From contig CM030335.1 of the NCBI GenBank assembly GCA_017654855.1, positions 992,001 to 1,056,000 of the forward strand: 64,000 nucleotides of DNA, written 5' to 3'. The notes beneath the pieces are model-generated. The model ran no database searches and had not been told where the DNA came from. It saw nothing but the letters and a program-made list of their open reading frames with translations. Position numbers and translations under genes: made by a program. Source of the stretch: Podospora anserina (Eukaryota). Shown in pieces: positions 21,028-63,387 of the stretch; position 1 is the stretch's first letter; the number at the start of each line of letters is the position of its first letter.

Positions 21028-22285
21028 TTAGAGAAGGGAAGGGTTAGAGTTGCGAAGCAACATCTCAAAGTACTCCTGGTGCCAGGCACCGGCCTCGGGC
21101 GAAGGCTGGAAGGCATCGGGCTTGCCGCAGAAGCTGTCATAACGAACAGCCGAGCTGTCGGAAGTACCATCCGACTCACCGCCGGGCTTGACCCAGACGA
21201 AGGCATCAGCCAGCTCGAGGCCGGTGTCGGCCGAGGGGGGACGGCCGAAGCCGGCACCGTCGACGTTGCACCAGTTACCCCACTCCTCGCGGAGACCCTG
21301 GACACCGTTGCGGCCAGTGTCGACGATGGCGTGGTTGGGCATGCCGGCGGCCTTGAGGCGCTGGCCAAAGGTGTTGACGTAAGTGCGCTCGTTCTGGCAC
21401 GAGTTGTACTTGGCGTCGGAGGCGGAGGAGAACTCGCCGGGGGACAGGTCCCAGGCGTTCCAGCCGGCCACGTTGGTGGCGATGCCACGGAACTGCTTGG
21501 GGCTGCCGGCGGCCTTGTAGGCCTTGGCGAGCTCCTCGGCGCCGGGCTTGAGGTTGGCGTCCCAGCCGAGCCAGCCGCCGTGGCCGGCGTCGATGTACTG
21601 GACGACGTTGGGAAGGTTGAGCGTCTTGAGCGCGTAGGCGACACCGTCGCGGTAGCCGGCGGCCGAGTTGCGGCAGGCCTGAACGTCGGAGTTGGTGACC
21701 AGGTTGGGGAGCGAATCGGGCTCAATGACGAGCGCGACGGCGGTGTTGGGGTGGGCCTTGAGGATGGAGGCGATGCCTTGACACAGCTGTCAGTCGTCTT
21801 TTTTCCTTGGTAAAGATGTCATTGAGGATTTACTTACGGTCAATGAACTCAGTCTTGTACCTGTTGAGCTCGCCAACCTTCAGCTCACCGTTGGAGGCCT
21901 TGGCAGCGCAATCACGGCCGGGAAGATCGTAGACGACGACACCGAGGATCTCGTTGCAAGGAACCTCGGCGAGAGCGGGCTCGAGCCTGTCAACATTGGC
22001 GATGGTGTCGAGCCAGACGAAGGAACCGGTGTCGGCAACCTTACGGGCGGCAGCCTCGAGGGAGGGGTCGGAAAGGTTGGGGATGGCGAGCTCCTCAATC
22101 TCCTTGCGGTAGAAGTTGTTGGCGTGGAGGGTGTATTGCTTGAAGACGTTGGTCTGGGCGTTGAGGGAGACGGCCGAGGCGCAACCAGCTTGTCTCTTGG
22201 TGGGCTTGTCCTGGGTGGTCGGGGAAGGGGCGGCAACGGCTGAGGCGACGAGCGCCAGAGCGGCGGCGGAGCTGGTGATCTTCAT
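21028..22285 (-). CDS. cel6: Secreted GH6 cellulase (cellobiohydrolase II/endoglucanase) without CBM1; intron at about 21779-21837
   Basis: Signal peptide MKITSSAAALALVASAVA, KR propeptide site, YDLPGRDCAAKASNGE, IEPDSLPNLVTN, DAGHGGWLGW, WGNWCN, WVKPGGESDG. Confidence 0.95.
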
Positions 22286-26090: not shown

Positions 26091-26552
26091 TGTGAGGAGT
26101 GCGATTGTGAGGGTCCCTTAAATTTGTGTAAGAACGAAGAACCGGAACTAAGTTTGGAACAAAAGAAAAAAAGAAAATTGACAATGTAAAAGATGTTGTC
26201 GTATTTGGCGAGTGTTGATGAGATGAGCACGAGAGCTTGCAGAATTGATGCTTGTAAATGCAGCTACCCGAACTTTTACATCTTGGCATGGGCTAATCCA
26301 TTATGATTATCGAGTTATCGGGTATCAAAGCTCGCTTATCGACATGTCTTGAACGACAAAGCACTCTCAACATCACCAGCGACATCAAATCACCCACAAC
26401 CAGACCAATTGAAGTTGAACAATGTATGCATTCGAATAACTGATACAACCAGTCATCCCAAAAGTCCCACATGTATGTAGTGTAATGTACCCAAACTCCA
26501 TTCCCATGCCCACAAACTCCTATGCCATCATGAATAAATCACACACAAAATC

Positions 26553-31999: not shown

Positions 32000-33360
32000 C
32001 TATCCAACCAAGTGCTTAAGCACGTTGCGCCGAGCCGGACATTCTTTAAATTCTTCCCACTCTCCCGATACAGGCGGCATGAATCCCGTTGCTCCTGGTG
32101 GTGTCATAGGAGGTGTTCCTGGCAATTGTCCCGGGAATTGAACTTCCGGAGGCATTCCCATGTCCATCGGTTGTCCTGACAAGGCCTCCAAACTGTGGTC
32201 CACCCATTGGCCCTGTCATTCCCGGTGACGGCGGTGGCAGTGGCGGTGGCGGTGGTGGTGGCATAGACCCAGGCATGAACTGTGAAGCTGCCATTCCCAT
32301 AGGCGGTGATCCCATAGGCGATTGTCCCATCGGTTGTCCCATCGGTTGTCTAATCCCCGGTCCCGCTCCCGGTTGCATCGGCGGTCCCATCGGCGGCGGC
32401 CGTGCCTGTGACTGCGGGGGGAAAACAAACTGCCCGTTAGAAGAAGGCTGTTGCGAGTAATGCTGAGGAGGGTGACCAGCATGGATCCCAGGTGGTGGCG
32501 GAGGAAAATCCGGGGCAGGACCTTGAGGAGGGGTATGAGGTGCGTGTGGGTATTCTTCATGCGCATCACCATCGTCGTCATAGTAGCTGCCGTCATGGCC
32601 CTCGTAGTCCTCGTCAGAGAGATGGATGCTGGACAGGACGCTGGCCAGGTCACTGGCAGACTCAGCGTGGTGTCTTGTTCTGTACCGGCCCCTATCAGCG
32701 TCTCTACCCGAAGATTTGTGAGGACGATCAGGAGGGTGTTGTTTCCAGGCGGCGTGCTCTGAAGGGCGGCTATGAGAGCTATGGTGATGGTGACTTGAGT
32801 GTGATTTGGACTTGGACTTGGACCTGGACTTTTCTCTTTCCCTTGCATTAACATTTGCATGGGCCTGCTGACGGGGTCTAAATGGATACAGTTGAAGCTT
32901 GAATTGTCCCTTCTTGGTACTCAATTTCTTCTCCACAATCCGGCCCATTTCCGCTTGCACTGGTCGCCTACGTATCTCTTTCTCTATCTCCTTTTCGGCC
33001 TTCTCATGCTTACGCCTTGCCTGTTCACGTGAGAATGTCTTGTGGTCTCCTGCCATGAAGGCGAGAATCCCGAGAGACTTTGACATAGGGGTTTTAAGCA
33101 GACATGAGGCAGCCCGTACATGAGAGAGCATCACTTCGAGCCAGATGAACAAGTCTTCAAAGATATCAGCAAACATGTCACTGAGGATGATTAGAACGAT
33201 AGGCCTCTGATGATACCTTGGGGTGGGTAATTGACAGACCTTCTAAGATACCAGGTACCTTAGTTAATAGGCCTTCAAAAATAGTAACAGGCCATCGAAG
33301 CTAGTCAACAGTCTTCGAAGATGGCCGATCTGCCCACCTGACATCGTGATATCTACCTAA
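32000..33360 (-). pseudogene. Probable pseudogene of a His/Pro/Met-rich hypothetical protein
   Basis: 376-aa ORF 32046-33176 whose PMG-rich tail appears to continue in another frame (32000-32203); the putative upstream exon beyond intron 33181-33239 has in-frame TAA/TGA. Confidence 0.5.
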
Positions 33361-34332
33361 TTCTTTCACTGTGAACAAACTTCCATGATTGCACGCTGCT
33401 GTTTCAGATATTGCGAACTGATAAAAGTTTAGCACATTCCCTCGAGCATAGAGACAATCAACAACTCAGCTTGAGAACCGAGATAAACCTCACGGCAAAG
33501 TTCTCATCCATCCCAATCAGTGTTGAGGGCTGCTGACGTGGTCATGGCACGCGGCCCGCTCCTGGGTAAGGTCAAGTGTTTACAAAGACATATCAAGGGG
33601 TTTGAGGGACCTGAGATGGCGGGATATTAGAGAAAAGTAGGGATAAGAATGTAGTATGAGGTATCGGCGTGGCTATGAGGTTTGAAACGGTGAAGAGTTC
33701 GGTTACGCTGAGTGCGGAGAATCAGAGAATAGAGATAAGAGGTATCATATGGATGGCATTCATATCGAGGGGAAGTATATATATCAGATTATCTCAACAG
33801 AATTTTGATCCCATCTTTGCCATTGAAAGTAAGAGACTGTGTAAAGGCCAGAAGCACTGGTACAGTGGCCTTCAAAACTGAGATTGATGGATATAAAAAC
33901 AAGACTAAGGCAATGGATATCTATTGATGTAGTTATTGATATTGCTGAAAAGATAGTCTCATCAGGGTTACTAAAATGCTTTCAAAATAATCAGTCGGTG
34001 TGTTTCAGTTGTCTTTCTAGACTTATGAACCCCTTGGCTAGGTAAGGCTTCAAACATAGTCTATCTGCGTTTTAAGATAGTTCCAAGGCCTGAACAGGTA
34101 ACGGACAGTCTTTTAGATACAGCTTGAACACTTTCTAGCCCGTGTTATATGTCTTGAATGGACTGCGTGCGTCATTAGATTTTATTTCCATGGCTCTAAG
34201 AACGTCATCTGTTCCCGAAGCTGAAGGAAGTAAAAGTCCAATTTATACAAGCAGGAGACGACTCACAGGTACTGACATGCCTCTCAGTAAAGTATCAAAT
34301 TCCAAAGCCCATCAGCTTATACATCATATCTA

Positions 34333-35321
34333 TTAACATCCTTCTAACGCGACAGCAGCAGGTAACTCAATATCAACAACCCATGGAAACTGTGTCCCAT
34401 CCTTCGCCCCTTGAATAGCCGCGTTAACAAATAAAGTACTCTTTCCCACCCCAATCGGCTGCTCATCCCCGGCACAATGACTTGTCCTCTTGTAACCCCT
34501 CCTCCGCAAATCTTCCAGCCGGCTCTCCTTCTCTCGAACCACATCCTCCGTATCCCATTTCCCCGGAAGAATACTCCCAAGATTTTCCACCAAAACAGAC
34601 CCCTCGTTGTTGATGTCACTAAAGTGACTTGGCTTCTCGCTGGGTACTTCCCGCCATGCCACAAATCTGGCCCCCCAACCATTGTGAACATGCCCATAGA
34701 AGTGCATCTTTGGGCGCGCTCTGGCAACAGCAGCAAAGAGATGTTCGCATCCGAGTCTCTGCTTGGACGCTGCACGGTCGAGGATCCCATTCGGTGGGCC
34801 GTGGGTGATGACAATGTCGACATCACTCGGTATGTTGAATTCGTGGTTCTCTCCTCGTTTGTACTGAAACCCCCAGTCGTCTGCTTCGAGTGATGGCGTG
34901 AATGGGCTGGCGTAGACCGTCAATTTCGCTCCGTTTCGGAGGGCAAAACTGTGGATGCCCTTTCCTAGAAAGACGACATCTTCCGAGTTGAACAAGCATC
35001 TGGCCTCTCCGACATCTCCATATTCGGTTTTGTTGAGATCTGTATCCGAGCCAGGTAAAGCTGCTGAAATTCTGCCACTTTTTTCTCAAAAGCCATTTTG
35101 TCAAGTGTAAAACCGTGATTTCCCGCGATGATCAGTTTCAGAGGGGCATCGATGCGGTGGAGGAGGTCCAGAGATGTTTGGAACTCGTGGATTTTGAATT
35201 CCTCGGTCAAGTCGCCACAGTGAATCGCTACGTCGACTGGTACATTGGGGATCGCCAGCCCCTTCTCGGCGTGTGAATCCGAAAGAATAAAAAAGCTGGT
35301 TTTGATGGCGTTTTTCTGCAT
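34333..35321 (-). pseudogene. Calcineurin-like metallophosphoesterase (MPPED/239FB-like) with a frameshift near 35050
   Basis: SDSH, HCGDL and AGNH motifs in ORF 34965-35321; THGPP and GHVH motifs in ORF 34333-34995; no splice signals seen bridging the frames; GNHD reads GNHG. Confidence 0.75.
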
Positions 35322-39107: not shown

Positions 39108-42100
39108 ATGTTTGCGCCCACTCTCCAAGAAGGCGGGCCCGCGAAGGGAACCCGCAGCAGTCGCCGTCGTCAGCGACCTTTGAGCGGCGAGAATTCAGCA
39201 CAACAACCCAAAGCGAAACGGCAAAGACTGCCATTGTCGGAAACGACTTTTGCGAATCCCGATGCCGCTGCCACTGCCGCGCCCGAGAACTTTGAGGTGA
39301 AGTCGGACCAGCTCGACCTGCTTGGCGCGAAGAGCGACGGCATTGAGAATGTCGGCGTGCCGCGACGGGAGCTCAGTGTCCGTTTCAAGAAGCCAAAGGC
39401 CGGCGAGAGACCAAACAAGGGCGATGGGAGTGTTGTTCTGGTATGTCTCCCATGCGCCATGGATGATCTCGATGTATGCTGACTAGTTACTCTTTACAGA
39501 CACAGAACAATGCGTACACAGTGAGCAAGCTGCCAGCGTTGCCGGATAAGCTCCGCGCCGACGCGCAGAGTAAGACCTACCTGCCTGTACCCTTGGGCGA
39601 GGGAACTCCACGTGGACTTGTGATGCTAACTCCTCTAAAAGACCAACAGCAGGGTGCCATCTTTTCTTCAAGCGGCTATGCCCTGACCCTCACCCATACG
39701 CACGCCTTCGTCTGGCCATATGCATCGACCGTCTCGTCTCCCGAAACATTCGTCTTCACACTCCCCTATCCCTCGAAGCACGTCAACGACCCTCTACCGC
39801 TCGGCTCCCTAGTACCACCATCCGCCGCCTCCGATGAACCGGGTCTGGTGGTTGTCATGCCCGTCAGCGGCAAAATCGCCTACTGGGAATCTATTGCGAG
39901 CGCCGCTACTCTCGACTTCATCCGCCAGCAACGGAACGGGGTCGAGGACACCATCCCGGGTATGTTCTCCGGAGAGCATGTCCTTCAGATTGTAAACGCG
40001 GAAACTTCTGCCTTCGTCCTTGTTCTGAGCAGTGGTCGCCTTGCCTACATGAGCGTCAGGGATACCCACGGCCGACCTGGAATCTCCGTCCAATTCCTCC
40101 GCGACGGCTTGTCCAACAATCTGGTGGGCTTCCTTGGCAACATCCGCAACGCCTTTTCTGGCTCCTCATCTCGGACCGACATTGCAGCCGCACGGGCAAC
40201 ACATGGGTCGAACGTCGGAGAGCGCATCATTGCCGCCGCTTCCACCAAAGGGAGATTATGCTTTTGGAAGATCCATCGTGGCGGTCAGCACGAGTTGCTT
40301 ATCGACTTTCCTCTGCGAGATGCCTTGAGCGAAGCAGTCCGCGCAACCGACAAGAAAGCTCAGGAGTTCACACCGGATTCTTTTGAGGTATTGGACTTTA
40401 CCTTTGTACCACGAGGCGTTGAAGACAAATACATTAGTGCCAGTCGACTCAACAAGTATGACCTTGAACAAGGGATCGACACGGTACAGCATGGATTGTT
40501 GCTAGTATCACACTCGGACAGGCGCCAGTCTCGATATGCCATTGTGGAGGTGACGATCGAGGAGGGTGACTATCGACTTGGTATTGTTCGCCCGATAAAT
40601 TCATACACCACCCCCGTCAGACCTGTTGCTGCCGAGAAACCCCGACTCCACCTACCACGTCCAGCACTTGTTGCTTTCGTCGTATTTGACCGGGCCGTAG
40701 TTGTTGCCTCCATGGGCTTGCTCCCCGAGTCTCCTGACGTGCAACTGCTGGACGACGCTCATGTCTTACCGCCAACGTTTGAGGACGTGATCGACTTTCG
40801 AGATGAGGATTCATTACACGTGGTTGGCTCCGGCAGCGAAGAGCCCAGCAGCAATGATCCGGGTCAAGATGGGCAGCGTATCCACCGATTTAGAACCAAA
40901 AATCCAGCCGTCGTGCTCTTGTTGCAGGGTGTTGGGACTGTCAGGGTTGCCGTGACGGATGTGGACCGATTCACTACTAACCAGCCGCCACAAATCACAG
41001 CAAAGAGCAAGCTCGAGCAGGCCGTCTTCTTTGGGGTCAAGGGGGACAACCCGCTCGTCTTTCGGGGCAAGAGGCAACTTCCTTTTTCCGCGCAGGATAT
41101 TGGAACAGCCGCTATCCTGCTCAGCAGCGAGATCCTGGGCTCCAAGACACCTTTCATTTCCAACATCTCAGCCTCCCTCGAAAACAACCTTCGGCTACGG
41201 ATCAGCTATCTGGATGGCCTAATCTCCTACCTTGGCGAGCTCGCGATTGAGCTGGATGCCCAAACCCGCTGGAAGTTGCTCTACAACGCCGAAAAACTGG
41301 CGGTTGCAACATATGTGTGGCAGAAGCATGAGGACTTCCTCGCACAGCGACCACAAGGAGAGAGAACAGTGGTCACGGAAATCGTTGCCTGGATTCATGA
41401 AAGCCAAAAAACGGACCTCAACATGGCGGTCGGAGAGGTTGATCCTGTCCGGCATTGGTTTATTCATGACGTCTGGAGATTCGACATCTTCCTTGCTTGG
41501 ACTTATCAGGTCATCAAGTACATCTACACAAAGGGAGTTGTCAACTCTGATGATGAAATCACGCGACTGGCATGGGAAGCCGCTACTGTCGAGAACGGAG
41601 CGCTTGCCGAGGCCCGGAAGTTCCGTCTCTCCAGGGCTAATGACTATGGAGTGAGCGGCACTGAGGTCCCGGGCGGCACCGGATTCCCAGAGCCCTGGTC
41701 TGCTACTCATCTCATTATTCACAACCACAAGCGACTTGTTGAGTTCTGTTTCAAGTGGCTCGACTCTCATCAACCAGCACAAGAGAGCAACCCCGCCAAC
41801 AAAATTCTCCTCGAGTCAACCCGAGGTCTGCTGCCACCTTTGATCAGCCAATACCTGCAATCATTGATCGACCAGGCCTCGTGGGCTACGGAAAGTGAAG
41901 TCTCGGAAATTCAGGAACGCGGAAAACTCTATCTGAAGGCGTACGCGGAGGAGGTTTATGACAAGGTAACCCGTCTGAAGGACTTTGAACTCTGGGAGGA
42001 GGCTATCCAGCTTGCCAAAGAGTACAAGGGCTTTGACGCCCTTGCCGAAGTCGTTGTGCAGCAGATTCTGTTGATGGAGCAGAAGGCCGCCAGCGCCGTC

Positions 42101-43450
42101 CCCCAAAACGCCGAGAACATGCAGTTCCAGGTTGAAGAGAAGAAGAAGCGTATGGGCAGGCTATTTGACGACTATGGAGCGAACTTTGCCTTCCGTGCTT
42201 ATGAGGTCCTGCTCGAGAACAGTGGAGTCCAGGCCGTTCTCGACTTTCCATACGACAGACATGGCTTTGCTACGCTATTCCTCCGGGCCAAGCCTGAGCT
42301 GGCCAAGATTTCATGGATCAACGATGTCCAACGAGAACACGATATTGACCATGCTGCCGAAACTCTTCTCAATCTGGGTCTGAGCTGCAAGCAGCAGATC
42401 TGGAATAAGAAGATTGAGCTCAGCCTGGGCAAGCTGGCCTTTATGGCTGAGGAAGCTGAACAGTCCACGAATGGAGACCACGCCAGCAGCGCATTCACTG
42501 ATCTTCTGGCCAAGACCAGCATCAACCTGGAAAAGATTGAACAAGAGCTGGAGATTATCAAGATCCAGGACACTCTCTACAAGACCATCCTGCCCATCAT
42601 CAAGGAGGGGGTTGACGAGTCGGCGGAGCTGGAGCTTCTTCTCAAGGAGCAAGCCGTGCTGATTCCCAAGAGGCAAAAGGCGCTCCACCGGATTTTTGAG
42701 GACGGCATGTCTCGCTTGCTCAAGCACGAGGCGTTGCATCCTGCCACCTTGATCGACCTGCTCACGCTGGGCGACCTGGGCGAGCAGTACGAGCACGTGA
42801 TCCCGGACCCGTTCTGTCTGGCCCTCAAGGTTGCTAAGTACGGCCTCAAGGGCGAGGAACGTGCCAAGGCGGTGCGGCTGATATGGCGTCGCTGTTTTGT
42901 TCGCGACGATTGGAAGGCTGTCAACCAGACTAAGAACAAGGGTGACGAGGCGCAGCTGACGTTGTTGGGCAACACGGCTACCTATCATGCCCTCTTTGCT
43001 GTTTACGAGCAGAGTAAGTTGTTCATTTGTCAGGGACTGGATCACATGCTAACTGCCCACCACGCAACAACAGGACTCTCAGACGACAAGTTCAGCCCGT
43101 TTGTCAAGCCTTCGGAGTGTTTGGGGGTGTACACGGAGGAGGTGGACCGACGGTTTGGGAACTTGGACGAGCAGGCGCAGCAGAAGATATTGGAGAATAT
43201 GAAGTGGGAGGATGATGAGCTGAGGGGGTATGTTGAGAAGGCGAGGGCGGATGCGTGGTTTCTCACGACGAGCGAGTATGCTGAGAAGACGGTGACGGCG
43301 GCGTTTAGCGAGCTGACGGCGGCTGGGAGGTCGAGTGTTAATGGGGATGGTGGGAGCGAGGAGGCGGCGATTCTGAAGAAGTTTGCGGAGAAGGCGGCGG
43401 CGGGTAAGGATGGGGGAAAGAATGGGGGTGGGGGCTTGTTTGCGGTTTGA
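39108..43450 (+). CDS. NUP133: Nucleoporin Nup133; introns at about 39441-39499, 39570-39641 and 43014-43073
   Basis: About 1400 aa; N-terminal beta-propeller motif EPGLVVVMPVSGKIAYWESI; KSKLEQAVFFG; C-terminal KISWINDV..KKIELSLGKLA and WRRCFVRDDW. Confidence 0.88.
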
Positions 43451-51528: not shown

Positions 51529-52299
51529 TTTGGCGGTTGTTTTTTTACGTGTTGTCCGTGACCGATTGTGGTAGTTGATGGGGGAGATATTGGAGCCGTC
51601 GGTGTATCGTCTGAATTGGTCGTGGTATGGTCGTCGCTCGTCAACGGTTTATCGTCGTTTGCGACGGGTTTGTTCACAAGTTCACCAGCAACAGCAGCAG
51701 CACAGCACAGGCGCGACCCCGGTCAAGCTTGGAAGCTGCCACGCTTCCACAGTAAAAAGTTGGGGCCACTCTCAGTGGAGCGGCCCAGCCAATCTCAGGG
51801 GTTGAGCTGAAGGGAGAGTCACGTGCGAGATCAATAACCAGAAAGCTTGACCCTTGGGCACTGTGTGCGTTTTTGGGTGACAACTGTGAGAGCGCACTGT
51901 GCCCTCTGGAAAATTTGGGCGGTGTTGCTTGACAGAATTTCGCGTTCTCACAGTGAATGCCATCATTCAATCATGTCGCTCATTTTCCGACAAACTTTGC
52001 CATCAAAACGTTGATTTTTCGTTGCGCAGTCCATCAAAATTTCAAGAGCGACAATTCAGTTTGATTGCTTTTTTAATAGACTTCCGTTTGATAGATACCC
52101 CCACCCTGGGTTTTTTTTCAGGTCGAGTTTTGCCAGATGCCCGATTGAAGTTTGGGACAAAACTGCGACCGACGAAACTCGCAGCTCTCTCGCTACCTTA
52201 TTAAGATATCCCCACAGTGCACGGGGTTGACCTGTCGACCCGACCAACCCCACCACCACCACCACCACCGACCTACCCGGCACAACACCACCACAAACC

Positions 52300-54180
52300 A
52301 TGACCTCGCGCGACGTTCACGATGTTCTCAATCTCCCTTCCGATCACTCGGGCGCGCCCCGACCATCCAAGAAGCAAAAGACCAGCGCGCCACGACCAAA
52401 CCTGAAGGGATTAGCTCGCGAAGTCCAAAACCTGGGTGGCGACAACCCAATAGCCATCGTTCCTGAAGTTAACTTCTTCAAGAAGCGCCGCTTTGCGACA
52501 CGGAAGCCGGTTGCGAAATGGGAGCTCAAGGCGTTCACCAACTCGGCGAGGGGAGACGACGGCGCATTGGTGCTGAGGCATTGGAAGAGGAGGACGGATG
52601 ATGGCGCGCCGCCGGTAGAAGGTGCGCAGGATGGAGATGGGCAACAACAGCGGGGAGGGGGGGAGGGGACGCCAGCTTCGGAAAGGAGGGAGGAGAAGCC
52701 TGAGGACTCGGCGTTTGCTAAGTACAATGTCAAGGTCGTTGTGCCTCACTACACCGAGGATCAGTATCACTCCAACCTCCAGAACAACGACTGGACAAAG
52801 GAGGAGACGGATTACTTGTTGGAGCTGGCAAAGGATTTTGATCTGAGGTGGACGTTGATATGGGATCGGTATGACTTTACTCCAAAACCACCCGGTGGTG
52901 GTGGTGATGCGGCAAATGGGGAGGATACCAGCACGGCGGTGGTGCCGGCCCCAAAACAGCGGAGCATGGAGGATCTCAAAGCGCGATACTACGAGGTGGC
53001 AGCCAAAATGATGGCTGTTCAGAAACCGGCGCAGTACATGACCCGGCCAGAGTTTGAGCTCTACGAGATGATGCAAAACTTTGACCCGGAGCAGGAAAGA
53101 AAACGAAAGCAGTTTGCGCTCAACACTCTGTCGCGCTCCAAGGACGAGGCCCGGGAGGAGGAGTCGTTGCTGCTAGAGGTCAAGCGCATCCTCGCGCGCA
53201 CGGAGAGGTTCAACGAGGAGCGCCGCGAGCTCTACAACCGGCTTGACTACCCGGCCACGGACTCGGACATCAACTCGTTCAAGACGTCGGCCGGGTTGCA
53301 GAACCTGCTTCAGACGCTGATGTCGACGGATAAGAACAAGAAGAGGAAGAGCATCATGCCTGGGGAGGGCGTCAGTCCCAGCAACAACTCGGGCGTGCCG
53401 AACAGTGCGGTTTCGGAGACGAACCCTGCCAATCGGAGGGAGAGCATCGCCGCTTCTGCGACGTCGAATAATCATCACCATCATGCTCGTCGTGATTCGG
53501 ATGCGAGGACACCGGCTACGCCGGCTGATCCGACGCCTACGTCGGCGGCGGCGGCGGCGGCGAATAAGAAGAAGGGCGGGGGTGCGCAGCAGCAGCCGGA
53601 GAGGAGGAAGTTGACGCAGCAGGAGGAGCAGGTTTATGGCGTGTCGTATCATGACAGGCTGGGGAGCGGCCCGACGTTTCGGTATGAGAAGATTAACAAG
53701 CTTTACAGCCACAAGAGCGGGCAGCAGCAGCTGCGGATTACGAATGCGCTTAGCGAGCTTGACTTGCCGCCTAGGCTGGTGATGCCGACGGCTGCGGTGA
53801 CGGCGCAGTTTGAGGTGCTTTGGGGGGCGGTGACGGCGTTGGTGGATTTGAGGAAGATGAGTGATCGGTTGGATGGGGAGATTAAGATTGAGGAGGCGAA
53901 GAAGGCGGAACGGGATCGGGCCAAGGGTATCGCGGCCGAGAAGGAGGGGGGGAAGGAGAAGGGTGAGGGTGGTGGTGGTGGTGGTGGTGATGGTGCTGCT
54001 GCTGCTGCTGGGGAGGGGGAGAAGGCCGGAGAGAAGACTGGGGAGGGGGGGCAGACAAAGGAGGATGGGGAGAAGAAGAGGCCCGGGAGTAGTGGGAGTT
54101 TGACTGCTGCTGGGCATAAGAGGAGCGCGAGCGTGTTGAGCGCGGCGAGTGATAAGAGCTCGAAGCGGCAAAAGAAGTGA
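52300..54180 (+). CDS. SWC4: SWR1/NuA4 complex subunit Swc4/Eaf2 (DMAP1), intronless
   Basis: MTSRDVHDVLNL, FTNSAR..LVLRHW, FAKYN, SANT motif WTKEETDYLLELAKDFDLRW..IWDRY, RSMEDLKARYY. Confidence 0.94.
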   Translation: MTSRDVHDVLNLPSDHSGAPRPSKKQKTSAPRPNLKGLAREVQNLGGDNPIAIVPEVNFFKKRRFATRKPVAKWELKAFTNSARGDDGALVLRHWKRRTDDGAPPVEGAQDGDGQQQRGGGEGTPASERREEKPEDSAFAKYNVKVVVPHYTEDQYHSNLQNNDWTKEETDYLLELAKDFDLRWTLIWDRYDFTPKPPGGGGDAANGEDTSTAVVPAPKQRSMEDLKARYYEVAAKMMAVQKPAQYMTRPEFELYEMMQNFDPEQERKRKQFALNTLSRSKDEAREEESLLLEVKRILARTERFNEERRELYNRLDYPATDSDINSFKTSAGLQNLLQTLMSTDKNKKRKSIMPGEGVSPSNNSGVPNSAVSETNPANRRESIAASATSNNHHHHARRDSDARTPATPADPTPTSAAAAAANKKKGGGAQQQPERRKLTQQEEQVYGVSYHDRLGSGPTFRYEKINKLYSHKSGQQQLRITNALSELDLPPRLVMPTAAVTAQFEVLWGAVTALVDLRKMSDRLDGEIKIEEAKKAERDRAKGIAAEKEGGKEKGEGGGGGGGDGAAAAAGEGEKAGEKTGEGGQTKEDGEKKRPGSSGSLTAAGHKRSASVLSAASDKSSKRQKK

Positions 54181-57100
54181 TTTGGCCCAGGTCTTGGACT
54201 ATCGGAAATGGGAGTCTGGAGGACGGTGGAGGAGTTGTACAGATAGTAATGATATCTTTGGGAGTCACCACGCTCTGTGTACAGTACAATATCTCTGCCT
54301 GATCCATCAGGACGTCCAGTGCATTGCTCGAAGCGATGGATGTGTTCACTTCCCAGTGCCAAATGCTATCTGGTACATGATTTTGGTGTAGTCAAGTTGA
54401 CGTGTTCTATCTCCAAAGTTGAAATTTATATGATCTGCTAAATAGCTGATCTGATGATTGCAAAATGTAGAGTGCTACCTTGCCCAAGTAGGTGGCAACC
54501 GGATTTATTGTCACCTTGATTCGAGTGTGTCAGTGAAAGTTATGGTTGAGGAATACACAAGGTTGAAGATGAATAAAATGAACCTGAGATGAAGGTAAGT
54601 GGACCAAGAAAAAAAAGATGACAAAGAAGGATGGAACTGCATCTGAAGGGCTTTGGTAGCCGCAAGGTGCAAGTATGGATATATTAGGTAAAGTCAAAAC
54701 AAACGAAGTACAGTATGTGAGTGCGTGGTGAGTGGTCGATGGAGCGAATGCGGATGTGCGATCATGCTCCCGTGGTAACATAGGTAGGGATCGTTGTCAA
54801 GGGATGGCGAACCGGATACTTGGGGCTCGAGCTACGAAACCCGATGTTGTGATGGTTAGCTGGAAGATAGAAAACTGGGCAGGGCATGCTTGGATTGCAA
54901 CAAACACCTACTTTCGACCTCCGGTTCAAGGTGCAGTTGCCAAAGCATTACCTATCTCTGAATTCCTTCAACTGTGTTACGCGGAATGCCATCACTGCTG
55001 GACATAAAGATGGTGATTGAACTGGACAGCTTCTATGGTACTAAATTGACAACAACTAGACTTGTGCAAGACCTCCATTTCTTGCTGTGGAGAATGCTTT
55101 GTGACTTGGTGTCATGTGACGATAATACAATGTGAGTATCTTGAGAGACAACCTGCTGTTCAGAAAAGTCCGAGACGAATCGATCATGACAGACAATTTG
55201 CGATGCTTGGGCGGCTAGCCGGTGCATGCGTTTCAAGAGATATCTCGTCATGTTCAACTCCTGAAATGTGTGGTACATTGATTTACAAAGTTCAACAAAG
55301 AGACAGATTGCTTCCTAACGGCAGCGGCATCTATAAAAAGCTCAGCAAGCCCCCAAGCGACGGGAACAATACCCGCCGACGTCTTGGCTTGCATTTCCTC
55401 GAGGAAGAAAGGGGTTCTAGGACCAAGCCTATATGCAGGTACATGTCTTTCGTCACGACCCGGGGAGAGCGAGGCTGCTCAACCGTGAGGCACGTACTCG
55501 AGGTTGATCATGCACCAGTACCAGTGGTCAGTACCTTCGGAGATTTACTGACATCTACGACACCAGACTTGCGAGGCTGTCGTCAGTGTCTGCATCTTGA
55601 GATTTGTGATGAGGATGTTGAAGGCTGCAGGCGCCAATCGTGAGACGACCTACCAGCTGGCGGGTAGACATGTGACGGTATAAGTGATTAGTAGATGGTG
55701 TTAGCGATGGTGGGGGACCGTTGGAATAACATGGGGTTATGGCACGATGTGGATATGCCTAGATCTGTAGTCAAAAGATATATATAATCTGCCCTGTTGA
55801 TCTGTCCCAATAGCTCTTGACCTTGAACCGCTGGTAGCTGCACCCCGTCAGATGGTTGGACGCCACCAAGGCTTGCTGATAAGAGGTGTGGTGATCGAGT
55901 TTCGAAACAGACATGTTTGACCCCGGATCTCTGCACGCCTTACATCAGAAGGGTATCCGGGGAAAGAGGTGTCGTTCAGTCTGACGAACCTTGGGCACAA
56001 GAGCGGGAGATGTTCGGCGGGTCGAAGAATGATGGGCCAATGAGAGGGCCGTAATGAGATCTGAGATGCTATTCTAGGTAAAGGTAAGCGCCATGCGGCG
56101 TTAAGCAATGCAGAGCCTCACCACACACCACAGTACATATGGGTTAGCCCTACCCACTTTGCAGTCAGTTCAACGTCCCGTTGTTGTGGGCGCCAAGGGG
56201 AGTTGAGGTTGCGCAATGGATGCATCATCTGCGGCCGACCGGAAGGCCACACACAGCGGACACGGCCGAGAAGAGAATTGAGGTGTGCGGGGGAGAGCCT
56301 CACGGCAGGCAGGTAGGCGAGACGCCGCGACTTAGACGCCGTCGACTCTTCCCGTGTGTGCTTCTGCTGCTGCTGCTGCACGACATGAATTCTCCAAGAA
56401 TGGTGATGGTACCTGCATTTACCTAGGCTGGAACTAGAAACCGGGCCTGTGGTGTTTTGGAATGCTTCTAGAAAAGATAGACGCCCAAGAAAGCATGTGG
56501 TGTTGGACCAGGCTGAGGTAAATCACCTGTTTCATTGGAGGTTCAATGATGCCGTCAGGTGCAAGGCTGACACCATGACTGGAAGGCAGGAACGACTTGC
56601 ACGGCACAAACAGGCCACAACCCACAAACCCTGGCTGATGATTGCAGCCTAATCACTATAGAATGATAGCCACACAGGCATCAACCACGCCTTCTCGGTT
56701 TCGGCCTTCGACGTCACCGGAGCGGACTTGGCTCCGAACCCGAATGGACGAGTCGCGATGTGAAAGAGAGACATTAGCACCGAAAGAGCAAACTCGTCCG
56801 GTCGAGTTGTTCTGGCGGTCAGGAGAGTGTCGTCGACGGCCCCGCATCGGCCCGGTCTGACGAGGTGACCGTTCCGATACTATTGTGGGGCCAAGAAATA
56901 CAAACCTCTTACATGAGTCGACACGCCGAATACAGCATCCACTTTGCTGACGACACCACCGAACATTACGTGCGTCTGCGCCTGCTGCCGTCCGTCGCAC
57001 CACACACCGCTCAAACGTCCTCCTCCCAGACCTCCCTGCCTGTTCGGTGAGAATTTGCTCCGTCATCGATAGGGGTCTTGAGTTGCGAGTCGCGATAGCC

Positions 57101-60100
57101 GCAGCCTCAAAAGGTTCCAACTGCATGCTTCATCACGGGACGAACACTGCTGCGGCGGGGCCACCTACCGGCTCATTCGCACGCCTCCCATTCGATGGCA
57201 ACCTGTTTCTAAGAATACCTTGCTCGATTATTCAAAATCCCGACTTCTCATAGGTCCTGCCAGATCTGATTTCCAACCAATCACAGCCAAGACCTTTCCA
57301 TGGCCCAGGAACGAGGAGTTGGCGATGGCGGTAAAGCAGCAGCTGCTGCTGCTGCCGCGGTAGTTGGGCTTCCTGTTCCTCCGGCACCTGGTTCCCCCTT
57401 CGCCTCGAGCCTACTCAGCAGCGCAGAAAAGACAAAAAGCGCGCGTCGCAGAGCCTGATATTAAAGGTCGCAATTTTGTGCATGAGGTGCGAGATGGTGT
57501 TCTATAATTATCACCCCATGGCTGATCCCTGCTGCTGCCCGGACCACCGCTTCTCGGAAGATTAGCGACTGTGGGTTTCATCCTCGACGTCGATGCTGCA
57601 GAAGCTGGGTTCATCAGAGTGTGGGGAGGGCCGTCTCTCTCATCACAGAGGAGTGACAGTCCAGGAGCGCCGCAGAGGCACAGGGTTTAACACGCTGAGT
57701 TATCACCGTCAGAGGGGACGCCATGTCCTCCACAGGGTCGCTCTGGTCACGACGTGGTGGTGGTATTCCGGCGTCGTCTTCCACAAAAACCGCACGTTGC
57801 AAGGCCGGCGCTTGGCCTGATTTGGTCCAAAAGGCCCTGACGGTGCAGCATTGGCGACCGTTTTCGTACGAGCTGGACTTCAGCCGAGGCATTCTTCTCT
57901 TGGTCAGATGAATCTGCTAGAGAGAGGATGAGGTTGAAGGGATAGGAAAAGATATCGTCACCAGATCGAAATACAACTTGGTACAATACAAATCGAATCT
58001 TTCAGGTACCAACACCAGTCGTCGCAAAACGATAGCAGAATGGGGATTAACGCACCGCGTCAAATTGCATGAGCACCGACCCCTGTCACGGCCCATCATT
58101 GGCCCTCGTTGTGAGACTCGAGCTCGCTTCACACGCTCCCATCACCACATCACCGGCTGGCAAATCCTGCTCGACTCCTCAGGCCCCTTCTGGCCCCTCT
58201 GGCGGCATTCGTTGGCCCCGGGAGCGGGTGTCGTCTTATCTCTTTCTCGAGTGTAAAGAAACAAACAAGGTCCGATTCGGGGCGAGCAACGGCGGGGGTG
58301 AGGTGTCCTCGACGGCCGCCGGACGGCACACACACACACGGGCACACACACACACATGGGCACACACACACGGGCACACACGGGGCGGTGGGGTAGAGAT
58401 GCTCAAAGCTCAAGCTACGTGACGACACCGCTTCCTCGCTTCTGCTCACTCTGCTGCAGGGGACGGTCCTCCGCTCCAACGCACCTGCAGCCCAATATTG
58501 ACGGCTCATTCAGGAGTTTGGAACACGTCTGCAGAAAAGCTGTATTGCCAACTGGCAAATCAGGTCAAGCATCCTGATTGCATCGCTTTCGGGTGACGGA
58601 TGGGGGCCATCTGACCCGCAGCTCCGTTCATCTTTTGTCAACCGTTTCCTTGTATCTCGCACGCACCAAGCGCCTCCAGATCTAACTGCCAGGGGTTTGC
58701 CCTGGAGCGATGTGCGCGCCAAGACACCTGCTCGAACTCTCTCTGAATAGACGGCGACGAGCAACACAGTTGTGGTAAAGGTACAGTGTTGCACCACCAG
58801 GTCAGATACAGACGACGACAGCCGCAACCCTCTCGGCTGCGCATACTCGTCGGTGAAGGCAAGCGATTCGTCAGTGAGGAACCACTCCGACACTGTCGAC
58901 TCGTGCAAGTGAGATGTCGCACAGCTTTTATATTGGCTCCCTCCTTTCCAGCCGCGGTGAAGCCAGGACTCGGTAGGTGGACTCGCCTGAGTGGCGGCTC
59001 TGATCGCTTGATCGCTTGTTCGCGCGGAAGCCGCTCTTACAGATCGCATAACACCAGGCAACTCTACACACTTCCACCACACCCGACTGACTTGGCGAGC
59101 CCGGCTGGCGTGGGCGGGACCTACTTTGGGGGACCAGCAGTAGTAGTTAATGCTAGGCCGCAGCTTATCCGCCTAGTCCGGCCCGGTCTGGGAATTAACT
59201 TACAATTGGTGTAAGGACAATTGAAGATATCCGCACCCGCCATGTGATGTGATCCTGATGTTCCCTACGGAGTAACATGTCAGTTCTCACAGTCTCACTT
59301 TGGAGAAGGAGAAGGTCTCAACAACCCCTGTCGTGAGTGTGCCGACAAGAATATGGCTTGGCAATGCCTTCTGCAAGTGCCCTGGCCCGGCCGGTCATGA
59401 TGGACGGGAGGGACAGTTCTTTCCGCACTTATTCCCAAGAAGGCAATCCAACCCTGGCCTCAGCACGCTGCAGCAACACGCACACCACCTCACGGCACGC
59501 ACACCACGCAGAATCAGCAACCAAGGTTTCCGTCACAAGGTACCGGTACATACATGTCTCCCTGGTTAGGCGCCATGCCACAATGAAAACACAGAAAGCA
59601 AGGGAACAGCACCCTTCCTCATTCCAGCTCCCTGCCCGCGGGCGTCTGTGCGACTCGTGGCAACCCCCCCCCCCAGCACCAGCCGCCCTTGCATTTTTGA
59701 CGCTCGTCTGCTGCGAACGGTTGACGAAAGCGAGTTTCTTCCTTCTTCTTTAGCTTTACCACATCTGCAGCAAAGCAAACCTGGAAGCCCCGGGCTGTCC
59801 GCGATCTCAACAATACCCGTAGATCCGACCGGTCTATAGCTAAGCCTAGCTTTGAGGACTACCCTTAGTCCGCCGGGGGGAGTATAAGCAACCGCCAACC
59901 TCCAAGCACCAAGCACTGTACAGATACAAGATACGGAGTACAGATACAGAAATACCGTATTACCAGAACCCCGGCTCCTGCTGGGTACGAGTACGGTACG
60001 GTACCAACCTCCCCACCCCATCCCACCCCAATCCACTCCGTCCATCCACCCACCCAATCCATCCCCGTCGTCCCCATCACTCCCTTCCCGACAGGCGCAG

Positions 60101-60871
60101 CGGTGTCCGTAATCGCGCGTTAAAAGGGACCAAGCGCCCACACCCCAAACTCCTGTTGAAGAAGGCTGGGGTTTTGGCTCAAATTTCCTGGCAGCACACG
60201 TTACGTTGCACGCCCCGTCGACAGCGCGCAACTCTCTGGCTTTGAACCACCGAGACGAAGGACGGGACTGGATAGCTGGACAAGAGGACGGGACCAGGAC
60301 AAGGACAGGACAGGGAAGGACAGGACAGGACAAGACAGGAGAGGACCGACAGGGCGACGGCGGCGGCGGCGACCCGGCACAGCAGCTACAACAACACATC
60401 GAGAGCTCCGGACACTCTTTCGCCCAAACGCACCTCGCATTTTGTTCTGCAGCAGTTTGCAGCTTGCGCAAATCAACACTCACCAGTCGGCTCTGGAAGC
60501 ACCGTTCATGACCCTCTGACGTGTCATTTCATCTCACCATCTCATCAACAACAGCAACACACAGTCTTGCTGAGAGCTCAGAGAAGCTTGTGGGAGCTAC
60601 CTTAGCTATTGTCAGGGTAGGGAGCTCTCGAGCAGCAGCAGTTCCAGTCCGCGCAAGCAGTGTCACCGGCCCCAGGTCCGGCGACAGTATAACCTATTTC
60701 CATCCGGGCGAACCCAACGCTGGGTAACGGACGCACGAGACACCGACCGGTCCCCCCCCGCCTTCCATCACTGGCGCATCGCATCCGGGAAATCCTGCAG
60801 GCTGATCACACTTTTTTTTTATTTTTTAAACGCTGATTCATCAGTGAATTTCACGATCCCCAGACCAGCGC

Positions 60872-61027
60872 ATGGTCTCTTTGAGCCGTCTCATCTATCT
60901 GCCACACCACTCACCCCCATCGCCCACTAGTTACGACCTCAGGCACAACCATCAACACTCATACTCACCATCACCCAAGCGCCGTCAATCAGCTGGCTGT
61001 TTCACTAGTCCACCCACCGGCTCATAG
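60872..61027 (+). promoter_or_regulatory. Candidate 51-codon uORF ending 14 nt before the AUG of the transcription factor
   Basis: Open ATG-to-TAG frame MVSLSRLIYLPHHSPPSPTSYDLRHNHQHSYSPSPKRRQSAGCFTSPPTGS*, downstream of a putative 5'UTR intron acceptor at 60844. Confidence 0.4.
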
Positions 61028-61041
61028 CTTTGTGAACAGCA

Positions 61042-63387
61042 ATGTCGACATTTACAGCCCTCAATGGGGGCTCACCAAGGCCTGCCGAGGCCGTGAACGG
61101 GACGGCCGACGCGGAACGAGGACCCGGCCAATCGGCACCCGCAGATCCCAGGCCTGCCGCCGCTGAGAGCTCCACCACCAGCCAAAGACACGACAGGCTC
61201 CCTTTTCCAGGGCAATCGTCTCTCTCGTCGGCATCCGGACAGGAGGGATCGCACAAGAGGAAGCGCTCAAACTCGGAGTCTCCAACCAGGGAACGCCAGC
61301 CGTCTCCTGCCTCGAGAAGGGAGAGGTCCGAACGGACAGACCAGGCAGAAGCCACCGAGCGGGCCGGCAGATCAGAACGGGGAGATCGTCCTGAGCTGTA
61401 TGGCGCTCAACGGGTCCGTTCGGAAACTCGCGACGGTTATAGCACCCCGCGGAGGGAGAGCTACCGGGGTTACGGCGACGAGAGAAGGGACGAGAGACGG
61501 GAGGATGCCGATCACTGGCATTCACGAGAGGCGAGAGAAGAGCGCAACTCCAGCTACGAGGGCCCTTACTCGGCAGGACCGGTATCGGCCGTCTCTGACG
61601 ACCAACCCGGCGATAGGCACCGGAGAGCCACGAGCCAGGGAGACAGCGCCGACTATGGGGATCAGAGCCCGGACGGGGACGACCGAGGTATGTACTCAGG
61701 CCAGTACACGCCGGAGCAGCGCAGAGATGGGGTCATCCAGTCAGATCCCAAGAAGCGGAAGCGCAATTTCAGCAACCGCACCAAAACAGGCTGTCTGACC
61801 TGCAGGAAGCGCAAAAAGAAATGCGACGAGACCAAACCAGAATGTAAGTATTGTTGTTGTTGTTGTTGTTTTTTATATGGGCCTCGATATGTGGTCGCGT
61901 TGGGCCCGACCTGTTTTGCTGAGGGTTAACAATCCTGCCAGGTAACAACTGTATCCGCGGCGGGTTTGTTTGTGCGGGATATCCCCCGCAGAGGGGAACA
62001 TGGCAGAAGCCCGAGGCCAAACCGGCCCAAGTCACCATTGAATCGAAGGACCCCAACTACGTCCCACCAGGTGCCTACGGGATGCCTCAGCAACCACCAT
62101 ACCCCCGGGAGCCGCTTCCGGGTCCGCCGTCCAAACGCGACTCGATTGCTTATAACCGCGTCCAGCCCACGCTCCGGATCACCCCCCCTCAGGGTCGCCC
62201 ATTACAGTCTGACGACGATAGACTGACCGCATCGACACTTCCGAGCTCCGTGCTGAGCCCTGACAACAAGCTGTCTGCTCTTTCTTCTGCCTACACTTCA
62301 TCAGCCTCAGCCATGTTTCCCACGCCCATCAGCGCCGTCACCAACTCGGCCCTGTCTGACCGGGCACCCAAGGAATACCAGAGGGTGCCGCCCCTGCATG
62401 ACCTCACTAGGACCGACCCCGAGCAGCAGCAGCAGCAACAGCAGCAGCAACAGTCTCAGCAGTCGCAGCCTCCGCCATCTGCATCAGCACCTCCTCCGCC
62501 GCCTCCCCCTCCTCCGCAAAGCACCACTGTTGCTCACCCTCCTTATAGTTTCCACACAGGCAGAACGGCCACCCCGCCCACAGCCCAGGCCGCCCCTCCA
62601 GCCCCGCCGCCATCGTCGTCTGTGGGTGGCAGCAGCGGCGGGCCACAAGCCACCGCTCAGCTGGCCCTATCCCACACGCAATTTCCCTCTGACCGTCCCC
62701 GTCGCGAAAAGGAAGAGATGCTCAACGGCCGACAATACTACCCTTTTGACAAGGAGCTCGTCCTCGAGCGCGAGCGCTGCAACGCGGCCTGCTGGCGCTT
62801 CAACAACTCGACCAACCCCAACATTGGCGTCTCCCCAGCCGAGCGCGCCCGCCTGTTCAGAGACATTCTCCATCCTCGCGAAGGCGTGCACCTCTCGCCC
62901 ACTCTCATGTCCCCCGTCACGCACACGGGTCGGGTGGGCGACAACACGGCTGTCGAGGCGCCCTTCAACTGCGACTATGGGTACAACATTCAGATTGGGA
63001 ACAATGTCTCGATTGGCAGAAACTGTCTGATCAACGACGTCTGCGAGGTCCGGATCGGGAGCAATGTCATTATCAGCCCGAATGTGTGTATTTACACGGG
63101 GACGTGCAGCACCGATCCGCGGAGGCGGGCGGGCAACAGCGGGACGCAGTATGGGAAGCCGGTGGTGATTGAGGATGACGTGTGGATTGCGGCGAATGTG
63201 GTTATTTTGCCTGGGGTGAGGATTGGGAGGGGGAGCACGGTGGGGGCGGGGAGTGTGGTTACTAGGGTGAGTTTTGTTTTCCAACATGAAAGACTGGGAT
63301 ATACTGACAGACGGACAGGACGTGGCGACGTATAGCATTTACATGGGGTTGAAGGCTGGGCATAGGAGGGGGATTGCTTTTGTCTGA
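61042..63387 (+). CDS. Zn(II)2Cys6 transcription factor fused to a C-terminal maltose/galactoside O-acetyltransferase-like (Mac plus left-handed beta-helix) domain; introns 61844-61941 and 63267-63318
   Basis: KRKRNFSNRTKTGCLTCRKRKKKCDETKPECNNCIRGGFVCAGY; C-terminal EKEEMLNGRQYYPFDKELVLER, VEAPFNCDYGYNIQIG and hexapeptide repeats [39 protein letters not shown]. Confidence 0.92.

What the first reader, a model, noticed from the sequence alone, without database searches (positions are those of the whole stretch)
61042..63387. Zn2Cys6 regulator fused to an O-acetyltransferase-like domain lacking the catalytic His: candidate acyl-CoA/sugar-sensing pseudoenzyme transcription factor
Seen: one spliced ORF joins an R/D/E-rich disordered N-terminus, an internal Zn2Cys6 cluster, a Q/P-rich linker and a complete Mac plus left-handed beta-helix domain. 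Established: in the LacA/Maa family the catalytic base is the His of the Y-T-A-T-H-P motif, and these enzymes trimerise and bind acetyl-CoA. Seen: the motif here reads IYTGTCSTDP (Cys codon TGC at 63105-63107), the acceptor-site Trp (VWI) is kept, and the C-terminal GNPA motif has become GLKA. Inference: the domain may be catalytically dead or altered, acting as a trimerisation or ligand-sensing module that couples acetyl-CoA or sugar status to transcription, which is unusual for normally dimeric Zn2Cys6 factors. I recall similar fusions in other Pezizomycotina, so the architecture is probably not unique, but I know of no described role for the domain.
Basis: partly seen in the sequence, partly recalled or inferred. 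Interest (0 to 1): 0.7.

Follow-up and report, generated by a model that had tools for sequence, protein, structure and literature searches.

The report
Fungal FF-7 regulator with dead acetyltransferase
This is the Podospora copy of a known fungal developmental regulator (FF-7); its enzyme-like domain has lost its catalytic residues in most filamentous ascomycetes but keeps them in the earliest-branching ones, so it probably now acts as a structural three-way clamp rather than the acetylating enzyme it was proposed to be.

Summary
In detail: one spliced 731-aa gene joins a Zn2Cys6 cluster to a maltose-acetyltransferase-like domain with Cys at the catalytic His position. The gene is not new. 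It is the Podospora orthologue of Neurospora FF-7 and Botrytis Bcin04g03490, a known transcription factor for sexual development, light responses and virulence. Botrytis missense alleles already show the domain is essential, and those authors proposed that it acetylates chromatin proteins.

What I did not find in print is the state of the active site. Among 122 named Leotiomyceta orthologues, His is kept in 1, the oxyanion Asn in 1 and an acceptor-site Glu in none. All three are kept in 7 of 9 Orbiliomycetes, and His in 8 of 11 Pezizomycetes. The tree places the main loss on the Leotiomyceta stem. The fold and a predicted homotrimer remain.

Best reading: a catalytically dead trimerisation/scaffold domain (0.6). 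CoA sensing stays possible (0.25). Sugar sensing is unsupported. The Cys and the GLKA change are lineage-specific.

The parts
61042..61843 (+). Exon 1: disordered R/S/E/D-rich N-terminus and first four Cys of the Zn2Cys6 cluster
61051..61065 (+). Conserved short linear motif F-T-A-(V/L)-N (aa 4-8), role unknown
   Evidence: 114 of 123 full-length named orthologues; coordinates
61255..61266 (+). KRKR (aa 72-75), putative nuclear localisation signal (inferred)
   Evidence: at least 90% conserved in alignment A1
61750..61973 (+). Basic region and Zn2Cys6 binuclear cluster (C251-C278), interrupted by intron 1
   Evidence: most columns invariant in 99 orthologues
61844..61941 (+). Intron 1 (98 nt, GT..AG)
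   Evidence: absent from contigs of X1, X3, X5, present in X15
61942..63266 (+). Exon 2: last two Cys, P/S/Q-rich disordered linker of about 240 aa, Mac cap and most of the left-handed beta-helix
62643..62672 (+). Short helix (aa 502-511, A-Q-x-A-L motif) just before the Mac cap; found only in the lineage that lost His
   Evidence: helix in model; 97 of 111 full-length Leotiomyceta, 0 of 12 Orbiliomycetes/Pezizomycetes
62706..62879 (+). Mac helical cap (aa 523-580) with family-conserved N559, P560, G563, S565, E568, R571
   Evidence: 552-560 lie in the predicted trimer interface
63015..63017 (+). Gly626, in place of the oxyanion-stabilising Asn (Maa Asn83, LacA Asn85)
   Evidence: role of Asn85 from PMC12775004
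63105..63107 (+). Cys656, in place of the catalytic His (Maa His113, LacA His115)
   Evidence: role of His115 from PMC12775004
63147..63149 (+). Gln670, in place of Maa Glu125 (acceptor-site role recalled, not from a call)
63183..63185 (+). Trp682 (Maa Trp137, LacA Trp139), kept; touches Cys656 of the next subunit in the trimer model
63243..63266 (+). G702-A703-G704 turn and T708-R709, CoA-side residues, kept; G702 is the site of the Botrytis null allele G722R
   Evidence: PMC8079791
63267..63318 (+). Intron 2 (52 nt); spliced in one run, retained in another; read-through gives a different 22-aa end of the same length
63319..63387 (+). Exon 3: C-terminal strands, GLKA (63346-63357), R726 (63367-63369), stop
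   Evidence: same end in P0001 and P0305
54178..61041 (.). Long upstream region with 9 copies of the published FF7 motif (t/c AAGCG c/a); possible autoregulation
   Evidence: about 2.9 expected; reached by 0-1 of 500 simulated sequences in each of three Markov models

Best explanation
The gene is the Podospora FF-7 orthologue, a sequence-specific transcription factor of sexual development that works with the GATA factor SUB-1/PRO44 (shown in Neurospora; inferred here by orthology). Its C-terminal domain came from a maltose-O-acetyltransferase fused to the Zn cluster at the base of Pezizomycotina. The active site is intact in Orbiliomycetes, partly changed in Pezizomycetes, and was lost on the Leotiomyceta stem (shown at sequence level). 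In Podospora, Neurospora, Botrytis and Aspergillus the domain is therefore most likely a pseudoenzyme, kept because its folded beta-helix trimer is needed as structure (inferred). It would hold three Zn clusters on long flexible linkers, so that a factor with no coiled-coil dimerisation helix gains avidity for short single sites, and it may offer a surface for partners. No regulating ligand is required in this reading.
For: Orthology: 61% identity over the full length and 79% over the domain to N. crassa FF-7 (P0285), 63% over the domain to B. cinerea BCIN_04g03490 (P0419); the domain tree follows the fungal classes; the only other match in the own genome is a stand-alone enzyme. Catalytic loss: of 122 named Leotiomyceta, 120 have none of Asn/His/Glu and 2 have one; 7 of 9 Orbiliomycetes have all three; 7 of 11 Pezizomycetes have two. 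The His column ranks 191 of 208 in conservation within Leotiomyceta. Over all 235 fetched proteins with a full Zn cluster and that column filled (cluster members included, so redundant): His in 1 of 213 Leotiomyceta, 10 of 13 Pezizomycetes, 8 of 9 Orbiliomycetes. Leotiomyceta form one clade, 99/96 (4 long-branch rows left out). The one His (Icmadophila) sits among Tyr-bearing Lecanoromycetes, and moving it to the basal group is rejected, p-AU 0.010. H115A cuts LacA conversion by 90% (PMC12775004). Fold kept: pLDDT 87-98 over aa 521-720; Foldseek to Maa 2p2o E 9.6e-18, target TM 0.94, rmsd 1.6 A. Trimer model: score 0.95, best control 0.00, runs agree in at least 67% of contacts, pLDDT at least 82; the mark was reached by 21 of 30 proteins solved as pairs of one chain and 0 of 23 single chains (eukaryotes 17 of 29; only 1 of 7 without an older solved relative). 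Domain needed: Botrytis Y633D and G722R are null (PMC8079791) and map to Y613 and G702. The model shows no helix between the Zn cluster and aa 502. CoA-side residues decay in Eurotiomycetes (G-A-G becomes A-P-G, no R726 equivalent) and Lecanoromycetes (T/K becomes H/Q) while the domain is kept.
Against: No assay of activity, oligomer state or binding exists in my results. The trimer pass may be from memory of solved Maa trimers. Predicted interface residues are no more conserved than the rest of the domain (0.64 against 0.67, p 0.39). All four CoA-side residues are kept in 77 of 102 Leotiomyceta with those columns filled, which a purely structural role does not require. QdtC, an LbH N-acetyltransferase, works without a protein base (PMC2943079), so loss of His alone does not prove death. 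The Botrytis alleles may act by misfolding or by blocking a ligand; they do not separate the readings. Basal sampling is small (9 and 11 named proteins).
Confidence: 0.6

Rival explanations
1. Dead enzyme, live sensor: the trimer still binds CoA or an acyl-CoA at the subunit interface, and occupancy tunes FF-7 activity, linking carbon status to fruiting-body and light programmes.
For: A703, T/S708, K/R709 and R/K726 are all kept in 77 of 102 Leotiomyceta, while the acceptor side is lost. R726 ranks 26 and G704 25 of 208 in conservation. The Botrytis null G722R hits the first Gly of the G-x-G turn; the like turn contacts pantothenate in VioB (PMC9271549; correspondence inferred) and a Thr-Lys pair contacts CoA in QdtC (PMC2943079). 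ff-7 expression is under metabolic control (PMC8495738).
Against: Eurotiomycetes have lost the G-A-G turn and the basic tail, and Lecanoromycetes the T/K pair. Sordariales, including this gene, lost the R180-equivalent and GNPA. An intron-retaining form lacks G719 and R726. CoA was not scored in the complex model. The list of LacA CoA contacts is recalled, not from a call.
Confidence: 0.25
2. Active acetyltransferase without His: the domain N-acetylates an amine (a lysine of chromatin or partner proteins, as proposed for Botrytis) by a base-free mechanism, or in Sordariales uses Cys656 as an acyl acceptor.
For: Proposed in PMC8079791. Base-free catalysis is described for QdtC. CoA-side residues are largely kept. 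Cys656 is invariant in 18 of 18 named Sordariales.
Against: The Asn is lost together with the His, and QdtC's mechanism uses an Asn. Cys is absent from most lineages: Leu in all 23 named Leotiomycetes including Botrytis. FF7 is not needed for light-induced nucleosome eviction (PMC4378982). No activity is reported in the passages read.
Confidence: 0.12
3. The domain is a decaying relic with no role, and the factor works through its Zn cluster alone.
For: Stepwise decay of active-site and CoA-side residues, strongest in Eurotiomycetes and Dothideomycetes (mean within-class identity 59% and 50%).
Against: Two missense changes in the domain are null in Botrytis. 58 of 208 positions are at least 85% conserved across Leotiomyceta classes. 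Within-class identity is 87% in Leotiomycetes and 85% in Sordariales.
Confidence: 0.03

Closest known systems
Neurospora crassa FF-7 (female fertility-7, NCU04001, Q1K622)
   Same: Orthologue: same architecture, 61% identity overall, 79% in the domain, Gly and Cys at the Asn and His sites. Published: 2756 ChIP sites, motif t/c AAGCG c/a, weak SUB1 partner, needed for transactivation, domain called a putative acetyl transferase (PMC4378982).
   Different: Nothing of kind. The passages read do not note the missing catalytic residues or trimer formation.
Botrytis cinerea Bcin04g03490 and Fusarium graminearum FGSG_10069
   Same: Orthologues with the same architecture; 63% domain identity to the Botrytis protein; His and Asn also absent (Leu, Gly).
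   Different: Botrytis keeps GNPA and both C-terminal arginines. The authors proposed regulation by acetylation, which the residue pattern argues against.
Maltose/galactoside O-acetyltransferases (E. coli Maa and LacA; LbH_MAT_GAT)
   Same: Mac cap plus left-handed beta-helix, 30-38% identity, target TM up to 0.95; predicted trimer with the His site and Trp facing across subunits.
   Different: Fused to a DNA-binding domain; His, Asn and Glu of the active site replaced; GNPA changed in this lineage.
Orbiliomycete FF-7 proteins (e.g. Orbilia brochopaga P0175)
   Same: Same fusion, same Zn-cluster signature.
   Different: Asn, His, Glu, Trp and GNPA intact, 97-99% identical over the beta-helix part among six relatives: probably still an enzyme. 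They lack the A-Q-x-A-L helix.
Enzyme-derived sensors in fungal transcription (Gal3, Gal80, NmrA; recalled, no call)
   Same: Works like: an enzyme fold reused for regulation.
   Different: Those are separate proteins with other folds and shown ligands; here the fold is fused to the DNA-binding domain and no ligand is shown.

Membership tests
FF-7 / Bcin04g03490 orthologous group | Internal Zn2Cys6 cluster, disordered linker and C-terminal Mac/LbH domain in one spliced protein | tested here: met
FF-7 / Bcin04g03490 orthologous group | Orthology to named members (identity, tree position, single copy) | tested here: met
FF-7 / Bcin04g03490 orthologous group | Binds the FF7 motif, partners SUB-1/PRO44, needed for female fertility | not testable with these tools
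   shown for Neurospora only (PMC4378982); the Zn-cluster signature is shared
Zn2Cys6 binuclear cluster proteins | Six Cys in C-x2-C-x6-C-x6-C-x2-C-x6-C spacing | tested here: met
   C251-C278 after splicing
Zn2Cys6 binuclear cluster proteins (Gal4 type) | Coiled-coil dimerisation helix directly after the cluster | tested here: not met
   no helix between aa 275 and 501 in the model, region of low confidence
Maa/LacA O-acetyltransferases | Mac cap and left-handed beta-helix fold | tested here: met
Maa/LacA O-acetyltransferases | Catalytic His (Maa 113, LacA 115) | tested here: not met
   Cys656
Maa/LacA O-acetyltransferases | Oxyanion-stabilising Asn (Maa 83, LacA 85) | tested here: not met
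   Gly626
Maa/LacA O-acetyltransferases | Active-site Trp (Maa 137, LacA 139) | tested here: met
   Trp682; Phe/Tyr in 18 of 112 Leotiomyceta
Maa/LacA O-acetyltransferases | Homotrimer | tested here: inconclusive
   model 0.95 against best control 0.00, but likeness to solved trimers may explain the pass
Maa/LacA O-acetyltransferases | CoA-binding residues and binding of acetyl-CoA | tested here: inconclusive
   A703, T708, R709, R726 kept; R180-equivalent and GNPA changed; contact list recalled; binding not scored
Maa/LacA O-acetyltransferases | Acetyl transfer activity | not testable with these tools
   needs an assay

The most novel reading that the evidence does not exclude
FF-7 began as a bifunctional enzyme-transcription factor, still catalytically complete in nematode-trapping fungi, and on the Leotiomyceta stem became a trimeric pseudoenzyme that kept the CoA half of its site. 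It would then be a Zn2Cys6 factor that reads acetyl-CoA or CoA directly and gates fruiting, light responses and virulence on carbon status.
Probability: 0.2. Interest if true: 0.8.

Novelty: new member of a known kind. Interest (0 to 1): 0.5.

Why it matters
FF-7 orthologues control sexual development across filamentous ascomycetes and virulence in Botrytis and Fusarium, and the role of their acetyltransferase-like domain is an open question raised in two papers. The residue pattern argues against the published acetylation idea and makes the question directly testable. Nature supplies the controls: a catalytically complete version in Orbiliomycetes, a half-changed one in Pezizomycetes, and a stand-alone enzyme in the same genome. 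If the trimer is real, this is a Zn2Cys6 factor that is neither monomer nor dimer, and a datable enzyme-to-pseudoenzyme change inside a transcription factor. The gene and its architecture are already known, which limits the score.

Tried and rejected
Cys656 as a family-wide new nucleophile: rejected, Cys in 19 of 122 named Leotiomyceta. GLKA as a mark of the family: rejected, GNP in 75 of 107; Eurotiomycetes show GLKP/GYKP separately. Sugar sensing: rejected for lack of acceptor residues. Two genes or a false fusion: rejected, because the join lies inside the Zn cluster, is spliced in three studies, and the fusion is annotated across classes. A single loss in all fungi: not so; the tree needs 5 changes, with separate losses in Arthrobotrys musiformis, Terfezia/Kalaharituber and Ascobolus and one probable regain. 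Higher conservation of interface residues: not found. The A-Q-x-A-L helix was included in the trimer job but is not among the confident contacts. Fusions outside Pezizomycotina: none among the named rows of the 120 listed in each; these searches list only the best hits, so absence is not shown. Run search: no RNA holder listed on record; contig depth was not used. Neighbourhood: housekeeping genes only, no linked sugar or acyl pathway (29 of the long ORFs scanned). Earlier findings of the scan: none. No paper naming the Podospora gene. The search for domain accession names returned mostly unrelated papers.

Full report
1. The observation. The window encodes a three-exon gene (61042-61843, 61942-63266, 63319-63387) of 731 codons with canonical introns; intron 1 splits the Zn2Cys6 cluster C251-C278. 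Pfam finds Zn_clus, Mac and Hexapep. In alignments to solved maltose O-acetyltransferases, IYTGTCSTDP lies over IYTATHP(I/L)DP, so Cys656 replaces the His. Counting along the E. coli Maa alignment, Gly626 replaces Asn83, Gln670 replaces Glu125 and Trp682 matches Trp137. Contigs of three runs from three studies join across intron 1, while a fourth run is continuous. Intron 2 is skipped in X3 and retained in X1 (4 of 24 listed runs laid; the RNA label is the tool's guess).

2. What the gene is. The best named hits are 731-aa proteins of the Podospora anserina complex; P. anserina PODANS_4_2530 differs by one residue apart from being annotated with intron 2 read through. The protein is 61% identical to Neurospora crassa female fertility-7 over its length and 79% in the domain; Botrytis cinerea BCIN_04g03490 is 63% identical in the domain. 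The genome holds one other match, a stand-alone 237-aa enzyme with Asn, His, Trp and GNPA intact. FF7 is a studied factor: it binds 2756 sites with the motif t/c AAGCG c/a, co-purifies weakly with SUB1, and is needed for transactivation but not for nucleosome eviction (PMC4378982; abstract, passages, section 12 in full). Its loss lengthens the clock period by 0.87 h (PMC8495738, passages). In Botrytis, loss abolishes sporulation, sclerotia and pathogenicity; Y633D and G722R in this domain are null, and the authors speculate that it acetylates chromatin proteins (PMC8079791; abstract, passages, first part of the Discussion). These two sites are Y613 and G702 here. So the architecture is known, and the domain is known to be needed.

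3. The active site across the family. None of the 120 closest homologues has His (Cys 47, Leu 40, Met 15, Val 12, Ala 3, Thr 3). Wider searches reached all main classes. I assigned classes to named proteins from my own knowledge of the taxonomy. Among 122 named Leotiomyceta proteins, His is present in 1, Asn in 1 and Glu in none; none has two of the three. Among 9 Orbiliomycetes, 7 have all three. Among 11 Pezizomycetes, 8 have His and 10 Glu, but none Asn (mostly Glu there). A domain tree built without the His and Asn columns gives Orbiliomycetes, Pezizomycetes and Leotiomyceta as clades (100/98, 100/97, 99/96; 79 rows, after leaving out 4 long-branch rows of 83). The His trait needs 5 changes: the Leotiomyceta stem, three smaller basal losses, and one probable regain in Icmadophila, whose placement with the basal group is rejected (p-AU 0.010). 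In LacA, H115A removes 90% of conversion and Asn85 is held to stabilise the tetrahedral intermediate (PMC12775004, passages). The replacing residue is fixed by lineage (Leu in Leotiomycetes, Tyr in Lecanoromycetes, Cys in Sordariales, Ala in Eurotiomycetes) and nearly always hydrophobic, which suits packing rather than chemistry (inference).

4. What is kept. The domain folds with pLDDT 87-98 while most of the rest is disordered, with no helix after the Zn cluster until residue 502. It matches Maa structures at rmsd 1.6 A. A three-copy model of residues 495-731 scored 0.95 against a best control of 0.00, with at least 67% contact agreement and pLDDT of at least 82. The mark was reached by 21 of 30 solved self-pairs and 0 of 23 single chains, but by only 1 of 7 eukaryotic pairs without an older solved relative, so the pass may reflect likeness to Maa; the alignment was not used and CoA was not scored. 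In the model Cys656 touches Trp682 of the next subunit, and the family-conserved 552-560 stretch lies in the interface. Against a special role for the interface, its 54 residues are no more conserved than the other 154. On the CoA side, A703, T/S708, K/R709 and R/K726 are all kept in 77 of 102 Leotiomyceta. The LacA contact list behind this choice is recalled; like contacts are described for QdtC and VioB (PMC2943079, PMC9271549, passages). These residues decay in Eurotiomycetes and Lecanoromycetes. GLKA is a Sordariales trait; GNP is intact in 75 of 107 Leotiomyceta.

5. How it most likely works. Shown: fusion, fold, loss of catalytic residues, their retention in basal classes, and (in Botrytis) need for the domain. 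Inferred: the domain is a catalytically dead trimer that tethers three Zn clusters on linkers of about 150-250 residues, giving avidity for short single sites and perhaps a surface for partners (0.6). A short helix before the domain appears only in the lineage that lost His (97 of 111 against 0 of 12) and may be part of the new role. Rivals: a dead enzyme that still senses CoA esters (0.25); a His-free N-acetyltransferase, for which QdtC is precedent but which also lacks the Asn here (0.12); a relic (0.03). Sugar sensing is unsupported.

6. Membership and novelty. It is a member of the FF-7 group. It is a fold-level relative of Maa/LacA but fails two defining catalytic features, so it should not be filed as a maltose O-acetyltransferase, although databases name it so. 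I found no statement of the catalytic loss, its timing or a trimer in paper searches. In PMC8079791 'trimer' and 'catalytic histidine' occur 0 times. The library holds only open-licence PMC papers and bioRxiv, I did not read either key paper whole, and one of 13 supplements of PMC4378982 was not searched; theses and subscription papers could hold the point. PMC12027217, PMC6293562 and PMC3197617 were seen as passages only and add nothing on the domain.

7. Side result. The published FF7 motif occurs 9 times in the 6.9 kb upstream of the gene against about 2.9 expected, and ranks 3 of 718 like-shaped words of similar frequency. The Neurospora ChIP table lists three peaks at NCU04001 itself; at least the broad one could come from the tagged locus. 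Autoregulation is plausible and untested.

8. Verdict. A known regulator, with a new and testable correction to the proposed function of its enzyme-like domain. Interest 0.5.

Noticed in passing
window 54178-61041: Nine copies of the Neurospora FF7 motif upstream of the gene, about three times expectation; Neurospora FF7 has ChIP peaks at its own locus. Possible autoregulation.
   Followed up: partly
window 63267-63318: Intron 2 is retained in the contig of run X1 and skipped in X3. The retained form is also 731 aa but lacks G719 and R726, and equals the older P. anserina annotation but for one residue.
   Followed up: partly
window 61051-61065: N-terminal motif F-T-A-(V/L)-N in 114 of 123 full-length orthologues inside otherwise unalignable disorder; a likely partner-binding motif.
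   Followed up: partly
window 62643-62672: A-Q-x-A-L helix present only in Leotiomyceta orthologues, the lineage that lost the catalytic His.
   Followed up: partly
L002 1162-1926 (G000:C6): Stand-alone 237-aa Maa-like gene with one intron and an intact active site; a natural positive control.
   Followed up: partly
P0175, P0322, P0324, P0327, P0330, P0333, P0339: Orbiliomycete FF-7 proteins keep a complete active site and are 97-99% identical over the beta-helix part: candidate active enzyme-transcription factor fusions.
   Followed up: partly
P0196, P0190, P0217: Eurotiomycete orthologues end in GLKP or GYKP where others have GNPA, resembling the Sordariales GLKA, and have lost the G-A-G turn.
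   Followed up: no
window 52231-54177: Nearest upstream gene with a family hit is a DAMP1/Swc4-type SANT protein; other neighbours are housekeeping genes such as a Nup133/170-type nucleoporin at 39467-43447, AFG1 ATPase, a kinase, MBOAT and RPL18.
   Followed up: no
window 16587-22420, 26440-28289, 32049-35085: Several long ORFs of 250-580 aa have no Pfam match above the cut-off.
   Followed up: no
window 60930 and 61612: Single-base differences between the window and the laid runs (60930 in all four, 61612 in three); the second changes residue 191.
   Followed up: no
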